A stretch of 64,000 nt of DNA from Marsupella aquatica. Its lineage: Eukaryota; Plantae; Marchantiophyta. Positions 26,337 through 58,108 of the stretch are shown here, piece after piece (the stretch's first letter is position 1; the number at the start of each line of letters is the position of its first letter). The DNA is taken from assembly GCA_973895155.1 (NCBI GenBank), contig OZ316894.1, positions 24,984,709 through 25,048,708 on the forward strand, read 5' to 3'. The notes beneath the pieces are model-generated. The model saw only the letters and a list, made by a program, of their open reading frames with translations. It did no database searches and had not been told where the DNA came from. Both the position numbers and the translations under genes were made by a program.

Positions 26337-29300
26337 TCAACTGACAATGTAAATACCACTCAGAGTGTAGCCACCAGTAGCACTCATTTGCATGTGGGGA
26401 TGTGTCCTCGATGGCAAAACCTGCACAACCCAACGTTCCATGTCACTAATGCTGGAATGGTGTGGTTCTCCCTCCCGAACAGATGAAACGAGTCATGAAA
26501 GCTAGAATTAGATATACATAGATGAGAAGGACACCTGGTATTCCCGGCTCCACTGCTCAGAAAGCTGTAAAGCCACAGCCATATTGTTGGCCTGAAGCTG
26601 ATGCATGCACTCTGCTAGTGGCTGTCCAAACAGAACAAGTTACCCTTAGTCATTACGCTTCGAGCTAATCCACTCGTGGTACATATAGTTCGGTTGGAAA
26701 TCAATCCAAGAGAATTCCCCCCTCCCCCCCCCCCCCCACCACACAATGCAAGCCAACCCTCTCAATTGAGTGATGATGCGTCTATCCAATCTGAATCTGT
26801 CACATGGCTTGCGGCAGTACATGATACAAGCTAGTGGGCATCCAAAAAGAGCAATGTAAGGAGAGAAAGTCACTTTTGCACCTGTTGGTATGAATGATAA
26901 ATGACGAATGGGGAAGAAGATGATAAGAGTGGCAGGAATTGCTCAGCAACAGTCCAAGGCTCGAGTTCTGGTGCAGCAACAAGTAGGCTGCAACATCAAG
27001 CAGAAATTTCCGTCAAGATTTCATTTATGTAAAGTTAGAAATCTCAACGTTCTCGTGAACATCTACATAAATATTTGTTATTGCAACTACCTGCAAGTTG
27101 AAGAGAGGAGATCAGAGCTAACTAAAAATATCATAAGAGGACAATTGGCTAATTTGGCATATACAATATGACTAACATACCTTGTAAAACCTTGACTAGC
27201 CCATCTATTAATTTCAGTGACACTTGCTTCCAAGCCCGGTCTAGCACCTTTGATCTTTTCCTCACTGAAAGAAGAATTGGATTCCACATTTACTGACTGT
27301 TCCATATCTAGCACCTGTTCTTCAGATTTCTTAGTATTCACGGAATCAGGATCAATGTCCATGCTTCTCAAATCAGAAGTATCACTAGTAGGTACTTGAA
27401 CACCATTGGTTTGGATGCCATCCTTTTCTAACGTTTTTGATGCTTCTGTCGTCGAGACATCATCTGTCGTGGACTTTTCATGTGCATGCTCTGTGATATT
27501 GGCCTCCTTCCCGTCCTCGATGCTATCAGGTTTGTTCGACTCCTTTAGTGAGTCCAATCCACCATTAAATCTTCTTCTTGCTTCAATAAGTGTTGCAACT
27601 GGAGAGCGCAACACACTGCAGAATTTCGAGGAACAACAGTTTTCCTTTAAACCTCTCATTAATTCAAAGAATCTGATCATGTTTGCGCTAACAAACATAG
27701 AAACGACAGATCTGATAAAATAAACAACAGGAACGGGTCACAATCCACCTTTTGGCAGTAGGATCATCAATATTTAAGAGTCGAACCATGTCTATCGTTG
27801 GTCGCTTAGCAGTATAATATGTACTGCAAACCGCACCATGACCTGCCAGACTCCAAACAAAGCCCCACTTCAGGCTCAGAAACCTCAACAAAGGAGTAGA
27901 GACTCATTCAAATAGTTTTGTAACCGACCAATCTGAAACACTAAGACAAAAACAGGCTCGGAGACCAGGCTGTAGAAAAGGTATCAACCACTCCTAAAAT
28001 GCCAAGGTTGGTCTCTATTCTACTCTGTGCATCAGGTCCCTTACCGCCAACACGCTCTGCGACTGCTGCTGTAATCAGACCTCCCAGTGAGTCGAGTACC
28101 AAAACATCAGAATTTGCTCCGACATTGCTGAGAGATAACATAAGAGCTAGAGTATCCATCCGACAAAATCTGCCAAAACATAAGAAACAATGTCTAAAAT
28201 CAACCTCGATTGTTTACATTCAATAAGGTTCAATTATACCCATCGAAGATAGTATCCAATTAGTTTCATTGTCAAATCCGCAAAGATCATTTTCATAGAA
28301 TTGAGGTTTGCAAGAACGGTACCCAATTTTGCGCGGATCCTTGGCGAAATACGCCTCGCATATACTGATCATTCCAGGACGAATAAAATCATAATCGTGT
28401 CCAGCATTCGCCCACTACTTGCAAGTATCACTGAAGTATCACTCAACAACTCAGACACGTGTTTGGAGTGCCAAACTGCAAAGCAAAACATCAATCATCA
28501 CTTGGAAGAGGGTCAATATTGACCTCCGTGCAGAGGGCCGTCTAAGAATTACGCGAGGGGCATATTTCTTTTGTTTCTTCCGCATATACTTCTCCTGTTC
28601 CAAGTGCAACACACGTTCAGGACAGCTGAAGAGAAATCAGCTCTGTTTTCTAGCATGAATAAGATATATTACCTAGCTGAGAGTGAAGACAATTCCTTAC
28701 CTGAGAGAAAGGGGTCTTTTGATCAAAGGACGAGCTGTTGGCTACAAGGGCATCAATAATCTGCCTTCCTGATGCACCATCCCTGCAGGTTTGGAAGAAA
28801 AATATATCGATTGATTAGCGCGAATCTTCAATCAGGCCGCTTCTTATTGGACCAGTAATTTGAGGAATATCATACGTGAGCCAAGGTCGTTCATGGTCAA
28901 TTTTAACAAACTGAGTAGAGGGGATCATTCATACTTGCGCATTCGCTCAATGTCTCCAGAAGATAGAGTTTGGGAAGTATTTGTGTCAATGAGGTTGCGA
29001 TTGTCCCTCTCTCTGATGTCTTCATTTTGTCCTGACTCATCCTTCTCATCAACCTCCGTACAATTGTCTGTACTCTTCACATCTGCAATAGAAGAAGTCA
29101 AAGCTCAGTATTAAGCATTTGAACATAGTTGCACTGTCTTTCAACCAAAAGGGAAAGTAAATTGCCATCCTGATAAATGATTATCTTCCTGAATTCAGCT
29201 TCATTGTGCATGTATTGGAATGCATGATTAAATAAATAAATATGCCCTTAATACTCACAAACAACTACATGCGTCATATGAACTTCACTGTAGGATGACT

Positions 29301-32350: not shown

Positions 32351-35300
32351 ATGGCGGGTAAACGGAAGGCAGAAGGAATTGCATTGCTCTCGGTCTATGG
32401 CGGGGACGATGACGACGGCGCTTCGCAGGCTTCGTCGTCTGATGAAGAAGATGAAGACGATGAGCATCCCGAGCGGCCGCAGGACGCGAGCAATCTTCAC
32501 GCGGATGGAGACATTTTCGGCATCGGTGTTAGAGCGTTGGGTGGTGACGACGACGGTGAACCTCAGCCGGCCGGCGGTGAGATTGCTTATTTTAGGTTTT
32601 CTGACTGTCATCTCACGCTGTGGATGTTACGAAAATATCTTCATGCTTACACCCTTTTTGTCCGTCAATTCCTCTCACAGGTCAGACGTGAGGGCCTTCT
32701 GTCATGAGGACATCTGAAGCTGGGAAATTTCCAGTAAAGACTGTACAAGCCGTTTTTGTGACTTCTAAGCTCTGTACTGTTTGGAGCGTTTAATTGTTTC
32801 ATCGTGAGTCTCAGAGTTGTTTGGGGTCGAATGTTTTTCCATTGGCACCACCCTTTACACCAAATTCCATGCTTAGATCAGGATAGTGATATCAACCCGA
32901 GATTGCTGAAAATTATAAGTTTTCGTCAGTTTTTAATTTGAACTTTTGTTTTATATTCTTCATTTTGTAGTCACCGATTCTATTTTCAGTTATTTCTTTA
33001 AAGTGAGGTAGACTTCCGTCAATTTATCAGGAATTCTCGGTAGTAAGTAGGTTATCTCAACAGATATTACTTAAGGTTTCATCAATTTATATGGTTTTTA
33101 AAGGTGTTCCTTTTTCAATTTAGAATGCTTGCGCACAAGGGTCTGGCAGAATGTAAATTAGCTTACTTTACCTTTTGAATGACTGTCTTTGTTCAAGAGC
33201 GACCGAGCGGCACCCACACAACAAGTCCTGGAAATCTAGCAACTTTGCAACCTGACAATGCGGCAGAAGGCTCGACGCTTCAGCCTGCTGATGCAACAGA
33301 TATTGAAAATAAAAGTAGTGGAGCCGTGGAATGGGACGAAGTTCCTGAATCCGACACTATGGAGGTTGACACACTGAACGATTTCCTCCCACCCGTTCCT
33401 GCAGAAAAGTATACTGGTGAACTGCAGGTGAGTGCTTCAAATCGTATTCGTCGTTATTTATATTCTCTTTGGAGTGTTCCCTATCCCCGCTGTTTGTGAG
33501 CTTAGTAGAGGGCAAACTATACATTCAACTTGCCATCTCTCTCATTACAGCAGTTACTCGTGTTTAATGGCGCTTTTGCAGACAAAATTTTCCAAGTATC
33601 TGGCGTTGAAGAGAACTGGAAAGAGTCTCAACGAGCAACTGAGGAATACCAAGGGCTATCGCAATCCAGATTTTCTGCAAAGTGCTGTTCGGCATTACGA
33701 CATAGATCACATTGGATCATGTTTCAAAAAAGAAATATTTGATCCTCATGGGTACGATGCAAGCGATTATTTTGATGCAATAGGTGAGCTACAACATCGA
33801 TATGAAATTACTCGTGTGGATCACTTCTCTCAGAGTGGATTCGGGCTTTGATTTGTTTTAGCTGTCTATTGGCGTGCAGAAAAAGCGTCAAGGAACACAA
33901 CATCCAGTCTAGCTAAGTGGTGCAAGGAGTTCATTTTATTTCTTTTATATTTTGACAACGTAATTCGGTCACAGTAATCCTAATCGTAGTTCTGAGACGT
34001 AGCTATCCACACTTCTTCTAGGCCGTCAACTGTTCCAGATTGTTTTAATTAGGATGGGTGAGCTCCAAGTTTTCAGTATGTTGCTTTTGGATGCACGGAT
34101 TCTTTCTATGATTAACAACGTTTCCTTTGTTTCATCTTCATGATACATTTGAGGTCTAGAAGTCTAGATGAGAGTCGTGAAGGACTGGCATTATTGCAGT
34201 GGTATCGATTGATTTGTTCTTCTGTTCTGCATATGTATAGCCCTTGAAATCCGTCGAGAGGCAGAGAGGAAAGAACACGAAAGAAAGCAGACGCAAAGAT
34301 TAGATTTTGTTCGAAGCAGCATTCAAACTGCTGTAGCAGTGACGAAGCCTATTGTGCCACTTGTCCACAGAGGTATGGACTAGAACATCCCGGTGCCAAT
34401 TGCTAGCTTACGTAAATAGGTGCTGCCTTTGGTTACACATATCACTAGTGGATGTGGTCTCAAATATATAGTATATATGATACTATTTCTTGCCAATGTC
34501 TTGCCATGACGTCAGGTTGGGCTCCTAAATAGACTGCCGTTTTGTTGAAGTTGAGACCTGTGTAAACCTGCAGGCCGTCGAAGTATCTTGTTTCAATTTC
34601 CTTGTCTTTACTCTTTTGGTATGTTACAGCTTCTCTTCGTCCTGTGGATGTTGTTGACTGTCATCTGCCTGAAGATAAGAACATAGTGGAAGGATTCATG
34701 ATGCATTTCTTTGCTGCTGCTCGCAGTTATAACAATGACGAGTAGCGAGACAACTGTAAAGACAGAAGGACGGACAAGCAAGAAAAGCAAATGGGACAAG
34801 GTGAAGTTCAACTTTTTGTGGTTTGGTTTTTGTTTTTGTTTTTTTAGTGTAACTTAATATTTCCATCTATATAAGGGGTATACAAGCATAGTTGTATAGA
34901 GACGTTGTTCTCGTTTCCAACTCTTGACCTTGTTGGCAGGCCTAGAACTGGTATGCGTTGTTATCCATTAGGCAAATGATAAGAAAGTGGGAAGACCGAC
35001 TGAAATGACCTTGGGTGTGGAGTAGGTTGGGCTCCAATCCTGAGTTAGTGAAACGGCAGTTTGGTCCTAGTGAACAACACCTTGTTAGGCCTAAAATCAT
35101 CTCTGACTTCTCGTTTAAAATACCCGTTTCGGAGTTTAGGTGAAGGCGTAAAGTTTTTCCTATGTTCTTTCCGTTGTAATGTCAGTTAACCTATTTTCAG
35201 TATATATAGATGTTTGTCAATACTGCCACGCCTGACTGGTCTGTGATTGATAACGATAGGTTGATGTAGATGGGGGCCGAACAACTCAGTCAATTACAAG

Positions 35301-35748
35301 TGCCGCAGATGCTATTGCTGCAGCAAATGCCCATGCTGCCTTGTTGACAGCCAGTGCCAATGCTGGTGCAGGTTATGCATCTTTCGCGTAAGTATTTTTA
35401 ATTTGTTGCAGTCCTCAAACCAGAGATGTGGTGAATCGGCCTCTGATGTTAGAGATTGAAAAGTATCACCTTTTCCCTTTACTTGTGGTAGTTGTTTGTC
35501 ATGACAACGAGTCGTTAGAATTTGACGCTAGTGTTATTTCCAAAACATAGTTTGAAATTGACGAATTGGAAGAGAGAAGTCTCTCGATCATAGCATGGAC
35601 GTACTCTCAAATCTGCAACGGTGTTCGTCGTGTGTGTTGGTCTTACAGACAACAGCGTAGAAGGGAAGCCGAGGAGAAATCTAGAGCCATTGAAAAAGTT
35701 TCATTTTCTAGCACAAGCAAATCAGACAGGAGGATAGATAGGTCATAA
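32351..35748 (+). CDS. SAP30BP: SAP30-binding protein / HCNGP-family protein, 7 exons
   Basis: Phase-consistent exons 32351-32576, 33198-33427, 33582-33783, 34241-34372, 34727-34800, 35260-35387 and 35649-35748. Motifs: MAGKRKAEGIALLSVYG, FLPPVP, LNEQLRNTKGYRNPDFLQSAVRHYDIDHIGSCFKKEIFDPHG and KKSKWDK. Confidence 0.92.
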
Positions 35749-38878: not shown

Positions 38879-41800
38879 ATGGAGCACAAGAAGCGAATAC
38901 TACTGGAATCAAGGCTACTTTTACTGCTTTTGATGCTGATGATTTCTTTCGTGGTGTCAACTCATGGCGATAAGATATCTTCAAGCCTATGGAAGACATG
39001 CGACCACCCCAAAAATAGAGTAGATGGCTTAAATTGCTCAAAGAAAGTTGTATTGGAATTGTCAATTGACAATGGCAAAGTATGTTCCTTTCAACTTCCA
39101 ACCTGAAATGTGTGAAAATAGACAAGTTTCCCGGAGTCAGGCCTGCCAAGTAATTATGTTGTAGTATGCATTTTCCAATATCTGGCCCACATGATTGAGA
39201 ACTTAAGAGAACCAATCATAGCCCTCAACACTAATCAATTGAAGGGGGGTTATGTTAGAAAATGTATTCTAGCATGGAATGACATTCAACGACAATTTAG
39301 CCTAGTTTCTTATAGTAAGTCCTTTCTCATTTGGCATTGGACACATGAACAGGGTCATGCAACTTTTACACTTTTATGAAGGTTGTTTGATTTCTTCTCT
39401 GTAGACAAAGACTCAGCTTTCAAAGCTCGTCAACTTTTTTTAGGATCTTTTGTAGTGTCAATATGGCCCTAAGATCAGTCTTAAAAGCCCAGCTGTGAGT
39501 GCCCAGAATATCACCTTGAGAGATAATTTGTCTTGTTCTTCTTTAGTTTGTGGTTTTCAATTCATGTGGTTGATTTCTCCATGCCCCAAAAAATGCCAAG
39601 AAATGAAGTAATATCATACAAAGTATACAGAGAAGCTTAGCATGCACGAAATTAAATTTGGCGAAGTACTGAAAACAAGGCCCCTCTCGATTGCGACATA
39701 AATGAATAACCCTATTTTCCTTTTGATGTCCAAGATCATGGAAAGCGATACCACAGAAATCTTTGTCACTTCGGTACAAGAAGCTGATGGTAAAAGTAGA
39801 GATCTTGGAAGGCCATACAGAGTGACAATCTACAAAAGTGATGTCTATGCTCAATACCCTTTGCGATATGTAAAGGTGAGATAAATTTCTTTTATGGAGT
39901 ACCCAAAGTTTTCTCCCAAGGGTTGAGCCTACAACGTTATAGAGGAATGTTGCAGTTTACTGCTGGTTTCTAGAGACAAATTCTGAAATGGAATGTGGAT
40001 GAAGATTATGGTCAACACATGCTAAAACTTTGGACTGCTAATGGAACTTATGCTTTAAAATCTTTTATCATATGTACAAGAGGATCTATTTTCTACACTC
40101 CTTTTTAGTTTTGGGAAGGGGGGGGGGGAAGCAGGGCACCATGTCACTTAATTCACCTTGACATGAATAGCCAACTGCACCCAAGGCTAATACCATGTTT
40201 GCCAATTTTACAAACGTATATTAAGCATATGAAAAGTCATACTTAAAAACCTAGAGCTTAATTTCTTCCAGTGATTCTATAGGGATCATTGTCATTTGTG
40301 CAAAACAAATGTCTTGAACTCCTTCACAAATACATAAAAAATAAGATAAAGTGGTAAGTCTTGATAGTCAAAGAAGCTTGTCATATTTGGAACTCAAAGA
40401 GCAGGTTCTATGATTCTTTTGTGAAGAAACCAGGTTGGCTGCTTGAATGTCAGTATTCTGTGTAGAACAACTAGCTCCAAGTAGTTGTGTACACCAATAT
40501 ATGCCTTGCTCCAGCTGGGGCTCTTGGATTTGAAGAGGGAATTTGTTTAGGGTTTAGGGATTGCTAAGTGTGACCCCCTAGTACGTGTGACCCCTAGTAC
40601 GTGTGACCCCTAGTACGTGTGCCATATATGGGCTCCCATCAAAATACTATGATTCTCCACTCCTTGGCAGAGCTTATATGTCATTTCATCTTGTGCAGAG
40701 TTTTGCGAAAGAGGTGGACTTTAAATACCCAAATGACAGTATGCGTTGTGGGTATTACAGCTTACTCCGTTCAATCAGTTTTTGTAATAAGTAGGCCTTG
40801 CCGAATAAAATCATGGACCCAATGCTCCTGTTCCCCTTGGTGCAATATACATGTTGACTTAGAATGTTGTGAGGATTCTATTTTTGCAGACTTCATCATA
40901 AGATTGAGGAGAGACTTCACCTTGGTGAGGTACTATGTTAATTTTGTATTTCTAATCAATCTTGTTTCATTTCATGGGATTTCTTCAAACTCCTATGAAA
41001 GAGTGTCATTTGTAGGTCTGGTTCAATAAAGCAATGGAATTTCTTTTAAGTAGAAAAACTTGTTGCAAGGTTTTATTTTTTCCAAGGGGAACCCACCTAT
41101 GAACAAGCTGTGCAACTAGTTTGCAGGCAAGGGAAACTGGAGGTTTATATTCTTGTATTTTCTCATATAATTCCTACAGCTACCACGAGCCCCTGTGGCG
41201 CATCACACATGTGAACAGCTTGAAGTGGTTTTGCATAGAGCCCATAATAGATACTGGAGAAGAACTGTATGGGCCGGGATTGATCTTTAGACCTCCTGCT
41301 TCAAAGCCACCCCAGCCACCTGTTCTGACCAATAGTCCCCACTATGAATGGCCTTGGATACCATCAATACACAGTCAAAATTTCTGAAATGACAGTTTTT
41401 TAAAGTTAAGTAGATTGTCACATCCAGTTTTGACCTGCAACACTGAAAGTCTCAACCTCCTAATAATGAGTTTTGAGTGGCATTTCACAATATCTCAGCA
41501 ATGTGGGCAATAGACCTTATTCCAGAGGAAAATGTTTGTTATATTTTCTTTCTTCCTACTTTTCTTTTATACCCCTTAGTACTAGTATCTGTAATGATCT
41601 CTTTATAATTTTGACATGACTAGTTATGTTACGCAGGGGTTTTGCAATGTTTGTGCTTGGAAAGATAAATTACCAAAGTGGTTAGCAGGAGCCAAATCAA
41701 TGAGAAGACCTGGCCTGCAATGTGTTTTCTTACCAAGTAAGGCCAACATTGCCCAAATGCCTAAACTTGTAAAACATGAACTCAGGACCCAACATGGGTG

Positions 41801-44800
41801 CATATATTGACTAAGCTGCTTCTGATAGTTTGTTATTTTTGAACGAGAAAATTAGGTATGTTCAATGATATTTCAACTCATTTCGACTATTGGTTAAGTT
41901 GCTTTTGAACTAGTTGATTAAAAAAAATTGAAAATGATTTTATTGGAAAAAAATCTTCAAAATTTTATTAAATTTTATTTTATTAAATTTTATTTTATTA
42001 AATTTTATTTTATTAAATTTTATTTTATTTTATTAAATTTTATTTTATTAAATTAAATTTCATCTCTTCCCTTACCTCTCAAACCAAAATGTCAAACATA
42101 TAAATGTTCTTAATTCTTTTCAGTAGCATATAAAAACCAAAAAAATTATAGGAATTAGTAATTCTTCAAATGGGATGCCTCAGAATAAACCATCTATATT
42201 GTAAATATAACTGAGAAAGCTTTTGGTAGGTTCAAATTTTATTTACAAATCCAGCTCTGTTGTACATAAATCTTAGCATTCAACATCTTGCTGCATCAAC
42301 TAGCTGGTTTATTGAGGAGAGAAGATAGTAAACCCCTCTGATGGACTCTTAATTTTCAGCCCTATCGATTATAGTTTTTAGCCTTCTATCTCTGCAGGGA
42401 TTTTAATTTTAGGCATTTGTCAACACACATACGTGTCATTGTCCCATCTCGTATATTATATGAAGTGTTTGTAGGGAAACTTGTGAATCTGCAAGGTTTA
42501 TAAAATAACAAAAATAATCTCTATATCACTATTTGCCTACTTCTTAAATATTATGGTTTTTGGCCTTGTGAAAAAAACAAGAGTAGGAACAAGTGCATCC
42601 TCTTGGTGGAAAAATGGAAGTGTGCATTGCCAAAGATACATTCAAAAACGGTTAGTTGACAAGCTTCACACAATAATGCTCCAGGTTCTCAATTTAGAGT
42701 CGAGAGATTTAAACAACCCAATCCGCCAACAAAATTGTCACCATTAATTCTGGAACCTGAAGGTATATAATAAATGAATTGTCCTGTTACATTTAAAAAC
42801 CATAAATATTTAGATAGCATACAGAAGGTCCCAATCAACTGTAGCTTTTGAACAAATTGACTATTATTCTAGACTCTTCTGGACAGCAAAAACAGTGTTT
42901 TTCCTATTCGTACTTTGAGATACTTCATCCACTATTTGAACATCAAGTCTTCTGCTTTCATTGAAATTATTGGAACCATTAAGGTTTACTTCAATGATAT
43001 TCATTGAAATGTAATATATGTTTCCCTTCTTTTAAAATAAAGGTACCCAGGCTACCTAATTGAAGACCCTACCATGACATTTGCAATTACCATGTTCTTA
43101 GAGGAATTATATTTGAAGGAAGGATTGGTCTATGTGCATTCAAAGAAAAACAAGGTACACCAGCATTTCCATATGTGCTCTTACTTGAGCTAAATTTCCT
43201 ACTCGAACCCAAAAACCTAATTTTATTTTTGCTGATATTTTAAATTTCACAACGGACCAAAAACTTGACTTAGAGAGTTTGATGATTGATCAAATTTCCA
43301 CCAGGAATTTCATGGAATAATAGTCATTGTGGTTAAATCTCATACACAGATTATATTGCTGCAATAAGAAAATATTATAACATAAGTGAGATCAATGATC
43401 CACAAGCTGGGGATAAATCCCAGATGGATTGGCGCAGAATGTAAGAAAACACTTGGGTAACACCCTTTACAGTTTTGACTGAAGTGGCTCATGATCATTT
43501 GCAGCCTATTTTAGTTAGTTTACCCGGTCATAAGTAGCTGGTCATGCCCAAACTATTCAAGATGTTCTTCACAAAAGTGAAATGTCCTTCCCAATAGTGG
43601 TAATTTGTTCATCATGCCCAAACTACTCGGGCCTCCTTCACGAAAGTGAAAATCCTTCCAAAAGTGGTAATTTATTACTCAATTGGTTTATAATATTGAC
43701 CATTTTTGTAGTCATCTGAAATATAGCAAATCATCTAACTAGAATCTCACCCTCTGTCAGGTAATAGATTGGATATCAGAGAACATGTAGGCAAAGATTG
43801 AGATTAAACAAAGATACAAAAGTTTCCAGATCAATGTACAAGTCTGCCAAACCCAGTAGTTTCAGTTGGTCGGGGTATACGGAAAAACTACTTGGAGCGA
43901 CCTTCACAAAAGTGAAGTGTCCTTCCAAAACCAACGGGTTAGTGTTGTTGCCAGGATAAATGGGCGGATGACTTTATGCAGTTCATGGGGAGGGGCAGGA
44001 CATCCACGCATCTTTTCCACATTCTAAAGTCCATAGACCCATACAGTTACAGTAAAAAAAGGTTCACAAACAAGTACATGAATATAACAAAAATATATTT
44101 GCGTAATTATTGGCATAACATTTTTTTTAACAAAACCATGGATATCTTAATTCTCTTTGATTCTATAGACAATATAGTCAAAGAGAATATATAAACTAAA
44201 AAGAACCTTGGAATCTTGGAACATGGATGTCTTAATTCTCATTGCATGTTCATCCAGAAGGTTGCGGAGTTAACCCCTTTGCAGAGAATTCATGTCGACA
44301 AAAGAAGTACTCTGAGGGCTTCCTTGCAAATAAATGTATCAAGCTATGCTCAACTATTTACCTTCAACGACAATCCTTCATCAATTCCAAGTGGAAGGGT
44401 AAGCAAGGTAGTTGATTCTTTTCACAATATTAGTGTTGTTTGTATGCCCAGTTGAGACGTTTTCCAAAAGAATATATTATGCACATAACATATAGAACCC
44501 CTTTGTACAGTGCCAAGTGCAACTGAAAATTAATCTAACTTAATGTAGATAGGGCTTTATTTATTTTGCCATTCTGACAATTGGGCTTTTTGGCTCTCTT
44601 GATCTTCCTGGTTTTCTTCTTTGATACAATCTTGTACTGGATTTCTTGCCTTTGGGATCATGTCTCCCCCTATGGTGCTTTTTGTTCTTTGTCAATGCTA
44701 TATACTTGAAACTTCAACTTACTACATTTCCTATTGAAAATAATTGAGTACCCATAGACCACTTTTCTTGATCCAGGACGAGGGAATGATGGTGAACAAT

Positions 44801-47800
44801 GAGAAGTACATGCCACTTTACATAATATCTCAACATGAACACTACAATGAAGGACATGTAAGCTGGCCAATTTTGTTTAAATTCTATGTTTTCTAGTTGA
44901 GATTTTTAGCCTTGCACTAATTCTGACTAGGGTGGGGGTCTGGTGCACCCATCAACAAGCCAAAGACCACAAGAGGACTCACAAGAAAAATAACCAGCAG
45001 GAAGGAGGGTAGATGTCAAACTGTACACCCACAGGACTGTAATTGTAGTAGGGACTACAGCACAACCCAAGCTGAGTGAGGTGAAAACTACACAGAAAAT
45101 GACTCCTATTGGCCCAAAGGAGGGTGTTGAATTCAATGAAGCACACTCAAACTAGAGATGGTGCAGGCATGAAGGGCCTGGACCAGCCTATTTTTTTTGT
45201 GCAATTTTTTTTGCCAAATTCCACCTCTCCAAAAAATGTTTGCCACTTTTGGCTAATATTTGCTAGATTTTTTAAACACCATTAGTCACTCTCCCACCAA
45301 ATCATGGACCATTAGCCAGAATCTAACGGCCCTCCTTAAATCTAGGGATATCTGACGGTCATGATTTATTTCAGTAAAATCTGATAGAGAATTTTCCAAG
45401 AATCTACTCCCTTAGAGAAGCAAACACTGGCTAAAAAATCAAAAACCTTTAAAAAATAAGTTGGCCTGTACTTCAGTCGTAGAACACTAAGATGTACATG
45501 GCAGGGTCCTAGGTTCAATTCCTAGCTGATCCATGTTGTTGAAAGTTCAAAAAATAATGAGCCCATCTAAATCTTGATTGTGCATTCTTCTCCATAAATG
45601 CACTGAAAATTACAAGGAGGAAAAGTGCAATGGCATTAAGTTTAAAATTTTAAGCTAATAGAGTGAATCCATGGACTGTGTAGATTGTTTGCTGCTTGTA
45701 GAAACCGCCTCAATCTTAGTTGGCTCTTTCCTGGACAGATGGGCTGGCTTTGAGGTTATGTGCTTTCTGGGTGGAAAGTCTTAGCCAATGTACATTTACT
45801 TGGTGTTTGGGCAAACTTTGTGACAAATATGGAAGTGCTTTGGACACCTTTTTCTTTATCCTGGACTGCCTTGGTTCAGGGGCCTTGAGCTTGATGTTGG
45901 CCCCCTTGTTTTTCGTTTGGGCTCTTTTGAGTGTTCATCTGTGGGTTTGCACAGAATCCATTCAACAAAATTGATTTAGAAGTCTACATTAATGAAAGAT
46001 AAAAATGTTCAAGATTTTAACATAAGACAATGTTAGATACCATGGAGGTTTCGTTTCAGAACTTATGTTAAATTGTTTGGTATCAACTCTAAATATCCCA
46101 ACACTCATTCAATTTTTTACTTGATTTTCTGGATTTTCAACATTCATTACTTATATGAGTTTAATTTGATATTTCAATTCTAGGAGGGTATTGCTGTGCA
46201 ACAAAGCATGGATGTCTTTTTAAACAAGAGCGTGACATCTTCTGTAAAGCTCGAATTCAAAAGGAATAAAATCTATTATTTTGTAACCAGGTACATATTT
46301 TTATGTTTTTCACTTTGCAAAATAAGGCATTTGCCAAATTCATTTTTTCACTCACTCATATAAACTCTGAAGAGAATTGAAGAGGAATGAAAATGGGTAC
46401 TTGTTTGATTAGCTAATAAAGTCACTGGCTAGGAGTAGAGATCAGTATAATTTGTTAAAGATAACATTCTACTGTAGCCAGTGCCTCTTTTAAAATAATT
46501 CTCTCCCCAAACAAAAGAAAAACATATATACGTCTAGGTTTTATAATGACTTGAAATGAGCAATTAGCCTCATAACGGAGTATTAAAGTGACAGTAATGT
46601 TGATTTTGAACATGATGGGAAATGTGGGAAGGGAATAGAAGTCCAGGAAAAATTGTTTCAGTGAGAGTTCCACCAAACATTGAAGGAATTCCAATTCTCC
46701 ATGTTGAAGTTACAAACACTGGGTGGCATAGTGCCAAATTTTTGATTCAGGTGATCTCATTGTATCCTAATAGCGTGTCAGTCAAAGAGGGCTTAATGTT
46801 AGAGCTTTAGCGTCTTTCAAATTTAGTACTTTTTTTTCTTCTTTTCAAATTTAGTACTTAAGTTTGCAGTTTTCTTTTTGAACATTTAACTTTTTGTATG
46901 TTATTGTAAATTTTTTTGATTTCAGCCACATTAAATCTTTAATTTTCTAGGATTTGTGACATCTTCAAAATCATCCATTAGAAATATTTTTAATTGATCT
47001 ATTTTGAACTATTTCAGGTGGCAAAGTGTTCTATTGGAATCCACAACCCACCAGTACGGTCCGAAACTCTTTGGTTGATAATTGTTTTAGATTCCTTTTT
47101 CCCAATTCGTATGCTTGATTCCTTGTCCATATATGCGGGTGGAATGGAAGTGCCTATTTTGACATTCCTTTGTTGTTTTCTCAGGTTCAGTTTGTTACCT
47201 TACCTTTCCCAAAATTTATTTATTCCTTCTTTTTTGAATTGCACAAGACTGAGAATGATTTCACAACCCATGTGTGTCAAGGTGCGTATACATGCTATGA
47301 ATCCAGTTGTAAAAGTTAACAATACGTTAGATCTCTTTACAGTGATTACGGACATATGACATTTGTTCTTGTCCAATATGCTTTAAATAAACTGATTTTT
47401 GAATACAAGTCGAAAGGTATATTTTAACTATACTAGCCTGAGATGCACAAATTTGGATGTAAATAGATACTAGAACATTCACGCCCATTGTGTCATTTTT
47501 ATAGACTCACCCTGCCCCCAATCCCCTTTTTCCCCTGTGCACCCAATTTCTGTTATGCCCCCAGAGTCACCCAGAGTCACCATCTAGAGGTTTCACTCTA
47601 GACTGTAGTCACTCAAGAGTAGATTTCAATCTTGATATGGCCAAACTCATATTGGCGCCATTTATTTTGTGTACTTTACTTCCATTTTAAAGTGTACTGG
47701 CAAAACCCCATACTGACCACAATGTGTCTTTCACAGTGAAATTATTTGACAGTTTTGGTGAGAAAGTGGATAGTTCAAAAATTGTATTCGGGACCATGCC

Positions 47801-50800
47801 CGGTTGGCACACTAAGAATTTGAAGGTTTGTAGCAGTCTGCACTTGATGTATGCAAAACGAGCGAGAAACAACTTTTTTTATATGACCAGCAGCTACTGA
47901 AAACATCTCATTTTAGTTTCAAGGTAGAACTCAATTCTGTGAAATAATTTTAGTGCTGGTCAAACAAACACTTATGAAACAAATCTTTTTGGGACAAAAT
48001 AATCAAAATTTTAACTCAATACTAATGTGCCATCTTGTGCCACACAAAAAATAAACAAAAGTATTCAAGAAATGTAGTTTACATCTAGTTCATTCTAATA
48101 TAGTCACGTCTTGTGCATGCTTTTTTGTTTCTTTTCTTCTGATGCCAATCTAGGATTATAATGCGGATCTTAACTCCACTACAAGAGGTGTACAAGAGTG
48201 CGATGGCATCTCTATGGGTCTCACATCCCAATATTATAGAACACATGACAACATCTCTAAAACGACAGTATCAGACAACCAGCGAAGAAGCCACAGTCTA
48301 GCAATCTACAAAAATAATTTAGCGGCTTGTCAACCAAAAAATATTGCTGCAGTCGACAGCTATTTCCAACGCAGGCTTGGCACAGGCAACATTGCAAGAC
48401 AAAAAAATAGAGTTGAGAACAAAGTAGTAGCCACTACACCCGGAAATAGAGGAAAAAGCAAAGTGAGAACAAGAAATGGGAATTATAAACCAAAAATACT
48501 TGGAAGTCCAAGAGCTCTCGTGAAAATCTTTGAGGAAATTGCAGCAGATGCTCCAGCTAATGAAACTCCTCCAGCTGCTGCAGCTACTCCATGTAGCATT
48601 ATTACTTGGCTGTTTGGAGGTTGTAATACCACTGGGAATGGAACAGGGAATTCAACAAACACTACATGCGGGTATACCCCTCTTTAAAATCACTTAGGAC
48701 ACTGTTTCAATTACTCATCTCCAAATTTGGATGGGTAGCCAAAAGTTTAAATTGCTTTCTTTTTGAAGATGTTTGTCTAGAAGTTCTGGTACACAAATAA
48801 TTTATGAATGATTGCATGTTTAAAAAAAAAAAAAAAACTTGCAATCCATATTAATATTTTGTTGGATGGAAACTGTTGCCCGGTTTGTTTAGAGGTTTCC
48901 CTAAACTGATGACAACAGTTTCGACTGACAGGAACTGTGGGGGTTCTGCAATTCATGCGTTCACTTGTGATATTAAGAAGTTCTGTTTCATACCTGTACT
49001 TGAAGTTGTTGGATTGGCTGTTCTCATAGTTCTAAGTAAGTATTCCACCAGTGAATGACCACCAGTTATTTCTCTTCTCTTCTCTCTTTTGTCCCTATTA
49101 TAAGCACTTTTCAGCTTTACTTGCAATGTTGCACTTAAGGTTTAGTATATGTGTGCAGCAATTATAAGGAGCTAACTATCATTTCCATAAATGTGATTGC
49201 AGTTTGTATGTTTGGTATCATTTCAAGCGAGTCCAAAAAGGTTAAATCGGGTAAAGGTTTTATCAAAGGGAAGTTACAGCAAGCTAAGGGAATAGTGAGG
49301 AAAAAAACGCCAGCAAAAAAGAAAGCAGGCAGAGGGGCTGGAAAGGCAAAAGGGAAGAAGGTGGGAGGAGGGGCAGGAAAGAAGAAAAACCCAGGCAGCA
49401 AAACCTAAGCTGGCAGAGCTACCGCTGGTAAACTGAAGATAGGGGCAGCTAAACCTAAACCTGCACCAAATAAGGAAGCTGTGTATGCCAAATTAGAAAG
49501 CTCAATGTGTATGTGAGAGTTCATGAGTGGACTAAATTCTCTGGCAAGGTTTCCTTCCCTCATTGTGAAAAACAATTACGTATTTAATCTAACATTTAAA
49601 TAAATGTGCTTGCAGTTTCTATAGTTGGGTGCATTTCGTGCGGGTCCAAAAAGGTTGCATCGGGTAAAGGTTGGTTTCTGAATGAGCTAAAATCCTTATG
49701 TAATCTTGGGGCAGAAGATGGGGTGGGGCATGGTGAAAGTGGACGGGGAAAACATAGGGTTTTACAATTTGGGAAAAAGATTGGGATGAAGATTGGGAAG
49801 GGTACTGGGAAAGTTTTAGCATGGTCTGGGAAAAGAACAGGGAAAGCTTTGATGTGGACAGGGAAGAAGACTGGGAAAGCTTTAAAATGGTCAAGGAAGA
49901 ACGGGGGGAAAGCTTTGAAGTGGTCAGCAAAAGAGGGAGGGAAAGCATTAGTATGGACGGGAAAGAACACTGGGAAAGCATTAGTGTGGACAGGGAAGAA
50001 GACTGGAGAAGGTTTGAAGGAAGCTTATGTCAACTTGAAGAAGCAAGATTATAAGGGGAAACATCCTAAAAGGGAGCATCATAAAAGGAAAGGTAAAGGT
50101 AGAAAGAAAGGGAGAAAGAAAGGAGAACCCACTGAGGAGGAATCACAAAACTCTGAAGACACTATGTTTGGAGGACTATTTGGAGACGACCAGGATCCTA
50201 AAAGGGAGCAGGGTAAAAGCAAAGAGAGAAGTAGAGGGACAAGGAAAGAAGAGACCACTGAGGAGGAATCCCCAAACTCGGAAGACACTATGTTTGGAGG
50301 GCTTTTTGGAGAAGACCAGGATACCACATTAGTTGAGAAGACTGAAAAGAAAAGGAAGAAACGAAAGGAGAGAAAGAAAGCAAAAAGAAAATCGGATCAG
50401 TTTCAGGAAAATGATTATGCAAAAGAAGAGATTGATGATGCAGAGGATGAAATTGATGACCCCCTTGATCAAGAAAATGATGATGGAAAAGATGAGATTG
50501 ATGATGCAAAGGATGAGATTGATGATGCAAAAGATGAAATTTATGGCCCTCTTGAAGAGCCAGCAGTCCACAAAGTTTCAAAAAAGAAAGCAAGTCTAAA
50601 GGAAACTAAAGACAATGCTCTTGAAGGGTCGCCCGATGACTCCACCAAAGAAGTGTCAGAGAGAGTAAAAAATGCTGCCAAAATTGGTAACGGAGAAGTG
50701 TCTGATCCCTCCCAAAAGCAGGTTATCCAGATCATATTAAAACAAAGTGACGTTGAGAAAGAAACTGGGAAAAAAATGGCAACACATGAGGGAAAATCCA

Positions 50801-51381
50801 CTAAAACCAAGAAAAATGTCCATAAAAAACCTATCACAAAGTCAAAAAAAGCTTCTAGAAAGACCAGTAGACCTCATCGCCATCACAAGACAAAAGATCA
50901 CAAACATCATTCATCACCATCATCATCTCGCTTTAGTGATGAACCCTCCCAACTTACTATAATCCCATTCTACTCTCCTAGTCAAGCATCACCTTGGTTA
51001 TTGACCCAACCCCAATTTCAACCTCAACCTCCTTACACCAACTTCCAGCCAGTGATTCTCCCAAATCAGTTCCCTGCAACTCCAAATCAAAATATCCTTT
51101 ATCAATTGCCTCCAAATCCCGGCCAAACCTGGCAACGTCAACCAGGACCCCCCCTTTCAAATTTTAGCCAGAATTTCCAGCAAAATCAACCAAGACTTCA
51201 ACTCCCAAATATGAACCAAAACCTTCAACAGCCTCCCCAAATATTGACCAATCCTGGCCAAACTTGGCAACAATCTCAACCAAGACCTCAGCCCCAACCT
51301 TCTAACCCAACCTTCCAACTGGGCTTCCAACGGTATCAACAAACTCCACAGCCAACTGCTTTCCAACCCTTTCAAAGATGA
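38879..51381 (+). CDS. HAP2: Divergent HAP2/GCS1-like class II gamete fusogen, 18 exons; long-tail isoform about 1270 aa
   Basis: Exons 38879-39079, 39735-39875, 40699-40751, 40890-40924, 41087-41142, 41637-41736, 42587-42650, 43043-43154, 44258-44398, 44777-44857, 46184-46290, 46639-46750, 47018-47053, 47185-47281, 47737-47825, 48154-48671, 48932-49035 and 49616-51381 are all GT-AG and phase-consistent (3813 nt). HAP2 motifs appear in order: signal peptide; KTC..LNCSKKVVLEL; RDLGRPYRVTIYKSDVYAQYPLRY; GFCNVC; RRPGLQC; SVHCQRY; YPGYLI; PLYIIS; TRSPGKIV; VTNTG..A.F..V.KCS; VCQVKLFDSFGEKVD; C..C....FTC....C; then a TM helix and basic tail. Exons 3-5, 10 and 16 are the least certain. Confidence 0.85.
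40569..40620. repeat. 16-17-bp minisatellite, 3 copies of gtgtgacccctagtac, in a HAP2 intron
   Basis: Seen directly in the sequence. Confidence 0.9.
41959..42060. repeat. Pure A/T 15-bp minisatellite (aaattttattttatt)n in a HAP2 intron
   Basis: About 6-7 copies seen directly. Confidence 0.9.
45461..45534 (+). other. tRNA-derived relic (SINE head or pseudo-tRNA) in a HAP2 intron
   Basis: T-arm-like stem-loop ctaggttcaattcctag containing a B box, with an upstream A-box-like tacttcagtcgtag. No intact cloverleaf. Confidence 0.45.
49203..49408 (+). CDS. Alternative duplicated terminal exon 18a of the HAP2-like gene; short K/G-rich tail, isoform about 750 aa
   Basis: tgcag acceptor in phase 1, matching exon 17. 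Its first ~55 nt are paralogous to exon 18b (ICMFGIISSESKKVKSGKG vs ISIVGCISCGSKKVASGKG). Confidence 0.7.
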
Positions 51382-54300: not shown

Positions 54301-56367
54301 GTGGAAAGTTTTTGCAAGACACTCGTATTGCAATCATTTTTTTCGTGAAGCCTTTCAGCTGCAGATGGCTTTTTTCTTAAATGTTTCAATGCCCTTAAAG
54401 ACACCCAAGTAGTTAAAACTCTGTCAGGAAATTGAACACTGGACAGCCTTCCAAGCAGAGTAACCCCCTCTAAAACCACCACTGTCTAGAAACGTAGATT
54501 GAAAGAAAGATGCCATGATATAAATCATTGGCCACTACACTAACCTAGGCCGAGCTCTGCACAGGCTCTCTAAATTGGGGACAACACACAGCCAAGAGTG
54601 AAATAACTTGCACAATACACTGAGGTTCCTCTGTACAGCCGAGGGATAAAAAAGTAAGCACAATACACTGAGGCTGAGACAACCACGATTGTCACCATCA
54701 AGTATAGGTTCCAATCCAGATTCAAAGCTTCAACCTGCAGATTCATAGCTCAATGTATAGCTTGAGTTCATTCACTTCAATTTCTTCAAAACTTTAGCCT
54801 CCACACAGGACAGATGTGACCACAGAACAGCACTCAAGTCACTCACTCATCTATATTATTGGCAAGACCAGTGAGGATACCAACTCGCAAGAGGGGGAGC
54901 AGTTCACAACTCCTATTGCCTCCTTGGTTTCAAGGGGTAATAGAACTTTAAACCCAACAGATTCACAGCTCAATCCACCAAACTGACAGCAGCATCCGCA
55001 CAGCTACTGCAAAACCTTGCAGAAAAGCAGAAACTTGGATACAATTTTGGAAGCCAGTAAGCACACAACATCAAGTAGCAGCACCAAGCACAGATCAGCA
55101 CCAAGCACGAGCCTGAGCACCCGATGCCAAATTGTTCAAAAGAACCTGAGGCCAAAGAGGACCAAGCAACACCAGCAGCACCAAGGTCCAAATAGAGCCC
55201 TGAGCACCCTGCAAAAGAGCACGTGCGGAGGATGGGCACAACCTCAAATCCACAAACTGCGTCAGTGGCTCAACAACTTTGAACCCTATGAAGCTCCCAT
55301 GAATCCAATTGTTGGATCAATCTCCCCAATGTGCACAGCTAAAGCCAAAAAAAGCCACAATGCCACAAGATCACTGCTCAGCTGAAGCCGAGCACACAGC
55401 CAAAATAACAAAGTACAAGAGCCTTCAAAAACCAGGTCTAAAAAATGAGCACAAGCAAGTGCAAACCAAAATCAAAAGGAGCCGCATAGGACACCAATTG
55501 TGAGATAAGGATGTTTATAAAGGAAGGGTTAACTAACCATAAATTTTAGAATTTTTACGTTTAAGATCTCAAATGAGGCTGAAGAGGGACCTGAAGACTA
55601 CTTTGAAATGTTATGAGACTTTCAAGCCCATCTGAGGTCAACCCGGATTGATATTAGAGAAGGAGGATCAACCCGGAACTTTTTACTATAAGCCTTGAAT
55701 GAGATATAAAGCTTATACCGAGACTCTACTAAACAACAGCTGTCCATTGCCAAAGTTTTTAAAACCATAAGTCAAACACAGGCACGACCACAGCAGAATC
55801 CGGATATAAGGAAGGAGAGTCGATCCGGCCTCTCACACCTCTCAAAGCCGAACTTAGTAGGTTTTGAGCTCCCGAGCGCATTAGGCTGTTTAAGCAATAG
55901 AGTGAGGAGGCTCTACCCTTTTGGTAGAGGATCTTGGGTCCGGATTATAGGACCAATCTTGCATTGCATGATGAGAGCCTGGATATGAGGGTAGTGACTG
56001 ATTTGTTGTGAGGGGAATGCCTACTCCACCGCTGGAAGTGAAGGCAGGAAGTTTGAGATCCTGGTCGTGGATACATCGGTTGTGAGAAGGGAGGCCAGGT
56101 CAACCCGGACATCACCATTGCAGGCCCGATTGAGTCCAGATTTTCCCCACGTTAGATGACCCTGCATTGTGGTTGACGAAATCTTGATGCAATTCTTCCG
56201 AAACGATTTTTAGTTGATTAGAAACGCTGCGGCCAGGTCGACCCGGACATTTCTACCATTGGTCGACACCGAAGCGATTGAATATTCTGAAGTTGCAGAA
56301 TTGTAGAGCTTGCCGTAGAGGAGGTAGAACATTTATTGGAAATCAATTTGTTACTTCCAGAAATCCT

Positions 56368-58108
56368 ATGGAGCAAGGGGCGGATCCAGCCGGAATGTCC
56401 ACTTCTCGCGTCTCTAAGGAGCATTCAACCTCAACATCACCTGCACCTACTCCGGTTAAAGCCCCTGTGAGACGATCGAAGAGAAAGGAGGTCCCCATTG
56501 CCATGAAAATTTTGAGGCCAGCTATTCCGGACAGTGAAGCTGAGAAGGTCAAACTGAGGGAGTCTTTGCTCAGGATGGGTTGTGAGTCTCTGATGGAGCT
56601 ACCCTGGAGTTATCAGAGCGAAGATATGATCAGAGAGATCCAATCCAAGGAGTATCCGGCTGAGTTTAAGGATACCTCCAGAGGCCGACCTGAGCGATGG
56701 ACTCAGATGATGATTGCAGGAGCTTTGTATTGGAAGATGAAGGAGAAGGTCCAGTGGGGAGAGCTGTCAACCTAATCCTTCCTTACTTCAAAGGAGCCAT
56801 CAATAGTAAGGACGGGTTCAATGTTTCTAAGTGTTTGGATCCTGATTTGAGACGAGTCTTCAGCTTTTTGCTACCCCTGCTGTACCCTGAGAAGCCAAGA
56901 AGAGTTACTGTTGGAGTTGGCTCTACCATTGTTGCTGCTTACAAGGGAGAAATAAAAGTCAACTGGGCTAAGCTTATCTTTGACTTAATAAGGAAGTTGG
57001 TACAGAACCTGTCCAACAAGAGTCCTACTCCCCTCTCCTGCTACCTGGCACATCTATATAGTTTTGAAGGAGTCTTATTCAGAGAGGAGAAGAAATTACT
57101 ATTGGCCAAGTTCAACTTCATAAAGTATGGAGAGACAGATCCAGATATCACCCAGGCCACCTCTGATGACAGTGAAGATGAGGAACCAGCAGAGACAAAT
57201 CCTTGAAAGACCCGGTCTGTTGCCCAGAACCTTGACCCGGACTTTGCCGACCCAGCCTTCGTCGACCCGGCTGAATTTCCGGATGCACCCGGCCATGCCT
57301 ACCTAGACACCCTAGCTGATTTCCAGATCATCTTAGACACATTCCAGAAGGTGAAGAGGAAGACCACTGTGATGGAGAAGGCCATCACTGACATTTCTCA
57401 AAAGTTAGGAGTGAAACCAGGGCAGATTCTTGAAAGATCTCCACCATGAGTGATGCCACAGATAAGAGGAAGTTGGAGAAGGAGAATGAGTTCCTCAAGA
57501 AGAAGGTATCTGAACTCAAACAACACTTGGAAAGGAGTAAGAAGAAGAATGAGCTTGAGCATACTCTTCAACTCAGTATCACTCAATCTTTGGATCTGAT
57601 TGAGCCTTTGACTGAGATAGCTTCTCTGGATCTTCTTAAGGCCCAAATTTATGATGAGTATTTGGCCAAGAACACCACACCCATCCTTTTCTCCAAGATT
57701 AACCATTTAGTGGTAGATGTGAGTACCAAGGTGGATGATGCACTTACGGGTCTCTCAAAGACCTGTGAAGCCTTAAGGGAGATGAGTGACTTGACTACAG
57801 AGGAGATATTAGCTGATACTGAGATTCCTGCCTTTACTACCAGATCTTTCTCTCCTAGTCCTCATGAAGGAGTCTATTCCACTGGCCCCTCATCACCCCT
57901 CAACCCTCCTGGTTTCCCCACTCCCAGTACACACTTCCACTCCCATTCTTACACTTATTCTCATGACCCAAGTGCCCATCAGGAGAACATGGATATTGAC
58001 CCGTCCATCCCTTTTACCACTGGCCAGCAGGGAGTTTTCCTTCGACCAGAACCCCTTGCCATGGCTAACCCTGAGGAGGTTCCTTCCCAAAAGCTAGGAC
58101 CAGAATAG
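56368..58108 (+). pseudogene. Decayed retrotransposon-associated accessory ORF of a bryophyte-type family
   Basis: One protein split by a frameshift near 56720, an in-frame TGA at 57204 and a frameshift near 57440. It carries ELPWSYQSEDMIREI..RGRPERWT, KDGFNVSKCLDPDLRRVFSFLLPLLYPEKPRRVT and VNWAKL, then a coiled coil. I recognise this pattern from repeated liverwort TE-associated ORFs. No RT or integrase is visible. Confidence 0.6.

What the first reader, a model, noticed from the sequence alone, without database searches (positions are those of the whole stretch)
41637..44857. HAP2-like protein apparently lacks the signature HAP2-GCS1 (PF10699) segment, with matching loss of a partner cysteine
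Seen: exon 9 ends ...TFNDNPSSIPSGR and the next exon starts DEGMMVNNEKYMPLYIISQH, which resembles the D..R....PLY.I helix. The ~70-aa WMLL...CNKIG...C...CL..QL block that normally lies between them is not findable in the 378-nt intron 44399-44776. The canonical GFCCxC reads GFCNVC here. Known (recalled, needs verification): in HAP2 structures the second Cys of CC bonds to a Cys inside this block, and the block braces the fusion loops. Inference: losing both together points to an old, tolerated remodelling rather than an assembly gap. The product could be a non-canonical fusogen, an adhesion protein or a dominant-negative trimer partner.
Basis: partly seen in the sequence, partly recalled or inferred. 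Interest (0 to 1): 0.9.

Follow-up and report, generated by a model that had tools for sequence, protein, structure and literature searches.

The report
Liverwort HAP2 copy lacking fusion-tip brace
This liverwort gene is an intact extra copy of the gamete-fusion gene HAP2 that has lost the 60-residue brace of the fusion tip, as has its counterpart in a second liverwort that also keeps normal copies, so it likely works as a cell-surface tether or helper rather than as a fusion protein.

Summary
The window has a 17-exon, open HAP2/GCS1-family gene (733 aa, all 16 introns GT-AG) lacking 60 residues that include the ij-loop block (old ~50-aa PF10699) and its three cysteines; CCxC reads CNxC. No remnant lies in the intron or window, and contigs of two organisms bridge the site. 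An orthologous model from Calypogeia fissa (64% identical) has the same deletion and C-to-N change, so this is inherited, not an assembly gap. Corrections: the deletion is 60 aa, probably inside exon 9 rather than at the intron; a second tip cysteine is also lost; today's 515-column PF10699 still matches. C. fissa also encodes block-containing HAP2s, and the block-less gene nests among liverwort HAP2 duplicates on a long stem. Frame, cysteines and sequons are conserved, but other substitutions are as radical as neutral ones, so relaxed selection remains a real rival. No expression data. Best reading: a repurposed, probably non-fusogenic surface paralog.

The parts
38879..39079 (+). Exon 1: start codon, signal peptide, first domain I strands
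   Evidence: tblastn of ortholog P0001, 65% identity; model
39735..39875 (+). Exon 2: domain I to strand a/b region
   Evidence: PF10699 columns 32-66, E 7e-4; 80% identical to P0001
40699..40751 (+). Exon 3: shortened b-c connection; first cysteine of the tip pair (Chlamydomonas C136) lost, its presumed partner kept
40890..40929 (+). Exon 4: approach to strand c
   Evidence: collinear with P0001
41637..41736 (+). Exon 5: strand c with CNxC in place of CCxC; first half of the cd (fusion) loop with the conserved Arg (R169) and Cys
42587..42650 (+). Exon 6: second half of the cd loop with tryptophans, strand d cysteine
43043..43154 (+). Exon 7: strand e into domain I
   Evidence: 74% identical to P0001
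44258..44398 (+).
44399..44776 (+). Intron 8, 378 nt, GT-AG; no remnant of the block
44777..44857 (+). Exon 9: probably a hybrid exon with the 60-codon deletion point near 44812/44813
   Evidence: bridged by contigs of two organisms
46184..46290 (+). Exon 10: last domain I strands and linker
   Evidence: 71% identical to P0001
46639..47825 (+). Exons 11-14 (46639-46750, 47018-47053, 47185-47281, 47737-47825): Ig-like domain III
   Evidence: 79% identical to P0001; model of P0001 matches Plasmodium HAP2 D3, Z 13.5, rmsd 1.9, 96 aligned
48154..48671 (+). Exon 15: long, sequon-rich stem, low-confidence in the model
48932..49035 (+). Exon 16: cysteine-rich pre-membrane segment and transmembrane helix
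49203..49408 (+). Exon 17: end of the membrane helix, lysine-rich tail, stop
   Evidence: 74% identical to the P0001 tail; look-alike fragment P0064
49616..51381 (+). Duplicated, possibly alternative last exon in the same phase; would give a 1253-aa form with a long low-complexity tail
   Evidence: use in transcripts untested

Best explanation
The gene is an intact liverwort HAP2 duplicate that lost the 60-residue ij-loop block, and its product likely serves as a surface tether or recognition protein beside a normal HAP2 rather than fusing membranes itself. Shown: open 17-exon gene; the same deletion and CNxC in a C. fissa ortholog model; block-containing paralogs in that species; nesting in a liverwort HAP2 clade. 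Inferred steps: (1) after duplication an in-frame deletion fused the start of the block region to the segment after its helix; (2) freed tip residues were then lost (the Cys of CC, one Cys of the b-c pair with about 10 residues, the GDF motif); (3) domains I and III, signal peptide, membrane helix and five sequons stayed, so the protein would fold and reach the surface; (4) the cd loop keeps five aromatic and eight basic residues and could still touch a facing membrane or partner, but without the cage that holds the conserved Arg it would not be presented as a rigid fusion surface; (5) a stem about three times the paralog's length would loosen the link between fold-back and membrane merger. 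Expression in gametes is assumed from the family, not shown.
For: Ortholog with the same lesions, 462 of 725 columns identical. The C165-equivalent is Cys in 73 of 73 other rows with a residue there, and the three block cysteines in 76, 77 and 76 of 77. Block-containing C. fissa HAP2s P0002 and P0088 plus fragment P0016. Tree: window plus P0001 100/100, inside a five-row liverwort clade 100/99, stem 1.1 against tips 0.21 and 0.20 (the same nesting). Selection since the split: 0 of 1000 neutral simulations stayed stop-free (mean 7.4 stops); 9 of 9 ectodomain Cys and 5 of 5 sequons kept (4.3% and 3.1% of 3000 open-frame neutral runs); identity is enriched at family-conserved columns (odds ratio 2.1, p 0.002 at the 0.5 cut-off; 0.027 and 0.024 at the other two). 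AlphaFold: the P0001 tip (125-201) has block means of 42-57, while the matching P0002 region is mostly 77-97 with two blocks at 55. The fold is still HAP2 (Foldseek E 4e-22). [quoted passage not shown]
Against: Substitutions between the window protein and P0001 are as radical as neutral ones (mean BLOSUM62 -0.55; neutral -0.48 +/- 0.15; all 29 control HAP2 pairs -0.20 to +0.84). 6 of the 7 exonic differences among the 40 shown (of 526) for the second organism change an amino acid, one at the candidate salt-bridge Glu; the sample is small and chosen by support. Only two full-length members are known and both are predictions from DNA. Low tip confidence may only reflect an alignment dominated by block-containing proteins. 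The conserved Arg and a hydrophobic cd loop are kept, which fits a fusogen as well. Point mutants in the block had little effect in Chlamydomonas (PMC5332557). Block-containing paralogs were shown for C. fissa, not for the window's own genome.
Confidence: 0.42

Rival explanations
1. A redundant duplicate under relaxed selection, on its way to a pseudogene, with little or no present function.
For: Neutral-like radical substitutions; 6 of 7 shown exonic variants non-synonymous (chance of 6 or more is 0.46 at omega 1 and 0.05 at omega 0.3); 38 of 82 family-conserved columns lost against 14 of 82 in P0002; intact paralogs could cover the function.
Against: No stop in 733 codons and 16 of 16 GT-AG introns; neutral runs never stayed stop-free; Cys and sequons kept; 0 of the 12 shown indels (of 92) lie in exons; a third open last-exon look-alike, P0064.
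Confidence: 0.25
2. A still-active fusogen with a rebuilt tip: the cd loop inserts without the ij-loop brace, or fusion needs a partner fusexin on the other membrane as with EFF-1.
For: Domains I and III, the conserved Arg (R169), four of the five cysteines of strands c-d and a 40-residue cd loop with 5 aromatics are kept; tip region 71% identical between orthologs; fusexins without a hydrophobic tip fuse bilaterally (PMC8784728).
Against: The block, its helix and the Arg cage are described as invariant across HAP2 structures (PMC6089408; PMC6327110); no other well-formed row among 78 lacks it; the tip is unresolved in the model.
Confidence: 0.15
3. A regulator that joins normal HAP2 in mixed trimers and damps or times fusion.
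For: Domain I and III surfaces used in trimer assembly are the best-conserved parts (78-79%); domain III clamps adjacent subunits (PMC5332557 section 12); two HAP2 homologues act together in Dictyostelium (PMC8784728).
Against: Only about 26-30% identity to the nearest paralog; the lost block lies near the three-fold axis (PMC6170185), so the interface may be damaged.
Confidence: 0.15
4. An artefact: the block exon is missing from the assembly or was missed by annotation.
For: A Marchantia model (P0004) also lacks the block, together with the whole c-d region, which shows that gene models in this family can skip exons.
Against: Gap-free contigs across the site in two organisms; no remnant in any intron; an independent ortholog with the same junction; accompanying point changes that no assembly error would make.
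Confidence: 0.03

Closest known systems
HAP2/GCS1 gamete fusogen (Chlamydomonas 6DBS/6E18/5MF1, Arabidopsis 5OW3; Pfam PF10699)
   Same: Signal peptide, class II domains I-II-III, pre-membrane Cys cluster, one membrane helix, basic tail; best PDB hits by sequence (E 3e-11) and by fold; conserved cd-loop Arg.
   Different: No ij-loop block or its three Cys; CNxC; b-c cysteine lost; much longer stem (about 217 against 73 residues between the last strand and the membrane helix in the two models).
Liverwort HAP2 paralogs of the same clade (C. fissa CAM6100529.1 and CAM6089959.1; Riccia fluitans R1flu_014599; Marchantia AXG93_948s1360)
   Same: Nearest relatives in both trees; share cd-loop and strand e features.
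   Different: The C. fissa proteins keep the block and CCxC; the Riccia fragment keeps CCxC; the Marchantia model lacks both regions and is probably incomplete.
Dictyostelium HgrA/HgrB pair
   Same: Two HAP2 homologues in one organism with different roles by mating type (PMC8784728).
   Different: Both are described as HAP2-GCS1 homologues needed for fusion; whether either lacks the block was not checked here.
EFF-1/AFF-1 and archaeal Fsx1 fusexins
   Same: Same fold class; fuse bilaterally with a tip unlike HAP2's.
   Different: Separate families; EFF-1's tip is acidic whereas this cd loop is basic and aromatic.

Membership tests
HAP2/GCS1 family (by descent) | Match to Pfam PF10699 above the gathering score | tested here: met
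   Ortholog P0001 124 bits against cut-off 27.4; single window exons fall below the cut-off (18.7 and 11 bits)
HAP2/GCS1 family (by descent) | Class II three-domain fold, type I membrane topology | tested here: met
   Model of P0001: top Foldseek and VIA rows are HAP2 (high whole-chain rmsd because of domain arrangement; D3 Z 13.5, rmsd 1.9, 96 aligned); signal and membrane hydrophobic stretches
HAP2/GCS1 family (by descent) | Nests among HAP2 proteins in a tree | tested here: met
   100/99 clade with liverwort HAP2s; long stem, no AU test run
Canonical HAP2 fusogen | ij-loop block (Chlamydomonas 352-399) with three cysteines and the conserved Gln | tested here: not met
Canonical HAP2 fusogen | Seven invariant cysteines of the b-c-d region | tested here: not met
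   5 of 7 kept; C136 and C165 equivalents lost
Canonical HAP2 fusogen | Arg-Glu salt bridge (R185-E126) | tested here: inconclusive
   Arg kept; Glu aligned in the pairwise alignment but gapped in the multiple one
Canonical HAP2 fusogen | Hydrophobic cd loop | tested here: met
   40 residues, 5 aromatic, 12 hydrophobic; Chlamydomonas 41, 4, 11
Canonical HAP2 fusogen | Trimer formation | not tested
Canonical HAP2 fusogen | Gamete expression and membrane-fusion activity | not testable with these tools
   Needs RNA from sex organs and a fusion assay

The most novel reading that the evidence does not exclude
Leafy liverworts carry a HAP2 subfamily that dropped the family's signature ij loop and still merges membranes, or partners the normal HAP2 from the opposite gamete: a natural minimal class II fusexin.
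Probability: 0.15. Interest if true: 0.9.

Novelty: new variant of a known kind. Interest (0 to 1): 0.6.

Why it matters
The ij-loop block was the signature by which HAP2 was found across eukaryotes and is held to be the frame for the fusion loops; earlier point mutants left its role unclear. A naturally kept deletion of the whole block, beside intact paralogs, is a ready-made test of what the block does and of whether HAP2 copies can be turned into adhesion or control proteins. It also shows that liverworts have at least three kinds of HAP2 gene. My seven literature searches listed no paper on block-less HAP2 or on these paralogs; the library omits most subscription papers, and supplements were not read.

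Tried and rejected
No whole genome is held, so paralogs in the window's own species could not be counted. Run search: no RNA holder listed; this says nothing on expression. Some bins lacked cover in run X2; not interpreted. A single exon against the PDB found nothing. Word-based protein searches found no further block-less protein (the second scored only the top 7997 candidates), and the HMMER search shows one protein per 50% cluster, so closer relatives may be hidden. Two metagenome scans found no locus; two other queries were unusable. The protein atlas did not answer. Earlier findings: none. Papers naming the C165 partner: none found; the connectivity is drawn in figures I could not see. 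Rejected: look-alike scraps of the block in intron 8 (score within shuffles); candidate exons near 41088-41266 and 43350-43440 (no counterpart in P0001); my early idea that mosses lack HAP2 (a Physcomitrella HAP2 annotation is acknowledged in PMC6089408). Codon dN/dS against C. fissa was not possible without its DNA. Scripts (time limit; error) gave nothing and were rerun.
Full report
Setting. The window is intron-rich eukaryotic DNA with no whole genome held. Exon 2 of the gene found one protein among 31 candidates, P0001 from the leafy liverwort Calypogeia fissa, 80% identical. I infer that the window is from a related liverwort.

Gene model. P0001 maps collinearly on the + strand from 38879 to 49408. 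The guided model has 17 exons, 16 GT-AG introns and 733 codons without an internal stop; 462 of 725 aligned columns are identical to P0001. It has a signal peptide, class II domains I-III, a long stem, a cysteine cluster, one membrane helix and a lysine-rich tail. P0001 matches PF10699 at 124 bits, and the five PDB sequences it matches are four named HAP2 entries and 5OW4.

The missing block. Between two anchor prolines the window protein and P0001 have 16 residues; the C. fissa and Riccia HAP2s P0002 and P0003 have 76, and 77 other rows 67-111 (the alignment held 79 database proteins of 430 aa or more, out of the 106 then held, plus the window model). A block profile scores about 82 bits on controls, -0.5 in intron 8 and at most 3.4 in any intron; shuffles reach 6.8. 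A gap-free contig of run X1 spans 42078-45261, and a contig of a second organism bridges exon 9. An assembly gap is therefore very unlikely. The first 12 residues of exon 9 resemble the stretch just before the block in 18 of 20 references, including the nearest paralog P0002, though not P0003. The deletion probably lies inside exon 9 and also removes the helix after the block.

Cysteines. The second Cys of CCxC is Cys in 73 of 73 other rows with a residue in that column (5 of 78 are gapped) and Asn in both orthologs. The three block cysteines (76, 77 and 76 of 77) are gone. The C136 equivalent (73 of 73) is also lost with about 10 residues, while the C147 equivalent stays, possibly unpaired. 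[quoted passage not shown] That the partner is C165 follows by elimination and from my recall; no passage named it.

Family context. A HMMER search returned 87 proteins. C. fissa has two block-containing HAP2s (P0002 and P0088, 94-96% identical) and a fragment of a third kind (P0016); a Marchantia fragment lies on the V chromosome. In two trees the window protein and P0001 form a long-stemmed pair inside a liverwort clade with P0002, P0004 and P0005 (quick search, 34 rows, careful search, 19 rows, support 100/99). The gene is thus a derived duplicate. P0004 also lacks the block but has lost the whole c-d region too, and is probably an incomplete model. Marchantia HAP2 is expressed in differentiating sperm (PMC6290024); which paralog was not stated in the passages.

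Selection. For function: no stop where neutral runs give 7.4 on average (0 of 1000 stop-free); higher identity at family-conserved columns; 9 of 9 ectodomain cysteines and 5 of 5 sequons kept; 0 of 12 shown indels in exons. Against strong constraint: changed residues are as radical as neutral ones and more so than all 29 control pairs, and 6 of 7 shown exonic variants in the second organism are non-synonymous. That organism shows two differing contigs at some places, so its variants may come from two copies. The pattern fits a protein whose frame is kept while its surface changes fast, as in recognition proteins (general knowledge), and also fits relaxed selection.

Structure. With the same 70 sequences, AlphaFold models domains I and III of P0001 with confidence but not the tip (block means 42-57), whereas most of the P0002 tip is confident. 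The best fold matches are HAP2. The window's spliced protein itself was not folded.

Verdict. The lesion is real, inherited and accompanied by further tip changes. By descent the gene is HAP2; it fails two defining features of the fusogen. I favour a non-fusogenic surface tether or recognition role (0.42) over relaxed decay (0.25), a rebuilt fusogen (0.15), a mixed-trimer regulator (0.15) and artefact (0.03). Function and expression are untested.

Papers seen. Passages only: PMC6089408, PMC6170185, PMC6327110, PMC6290024, PMC8784728, PMC9259645, PMC12069490, PMC8777248, PMC9659367, bioRxiv 10.1101/2020.10.29.361501. Passages plus section 12: PMC5332557. No figures or supplements were seen; figure-drawn disulfide maps and supplementary HAP2 lists may bear on the pairing and novelty claims.

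Noticed in passing
window 49203-49408 and 49616-51381: The last exon is duplicated in tandem (about 78% alike over 102 nt including the acceptor). The second copy is in the same phase and runs about 590 codons with lysine-rich repeats, acidic repeats, a His/Ser run and a Gln/Pro tail; it would give a 1253-aa isoform. No Pfam match.
   Followed up: partly
window 32351-35389 (+): Upstream neighbour is an HCNGP-like (SAP30-binding protein type, name recalled) gene; PF07818 E 3e-22.
   Followed up: partly
P0019/P0107 and P0016: A Marchantia HAP2 fragment is on the male V chromosome (Mp_Vg00580 / MPTK1_Vg00525) and groups with a C. fissa fragment and Riccia P0003, apart from the clade holding this gene: liverworts have at least two old HAP2 lineages.
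   Followed up: partly
window 40712: One run of the second organism (X3, not X4) has Gly in place of the Glu that may be the salt-bridge partner; two differing contigs at 39809-40156 suggest a second copy or a subgenome.
   Followed up: no
window 45200-45620, 43500-43950, 47400-47700: High-copy repeats inside introns 9, 7 and 13 (summed depth up to about 100 times background), likely small mobile elements.
   Followed up: no
window 41960-42060 and 40574-40621: AT-rich microsatellite-like array in intron 5 and a short tandem repeat in intron 2.
   Followed up: no
window 56200-58100 (+): Broken open frames that look like a retrotransposon-derived gene (recalled resemblance; no Pfam match).
   Followed up: no
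window 27090-27737 (-): 216-aa open frame with a weak SPATS2-like match below the cut-off (E 0.0017).
   Followed up: no
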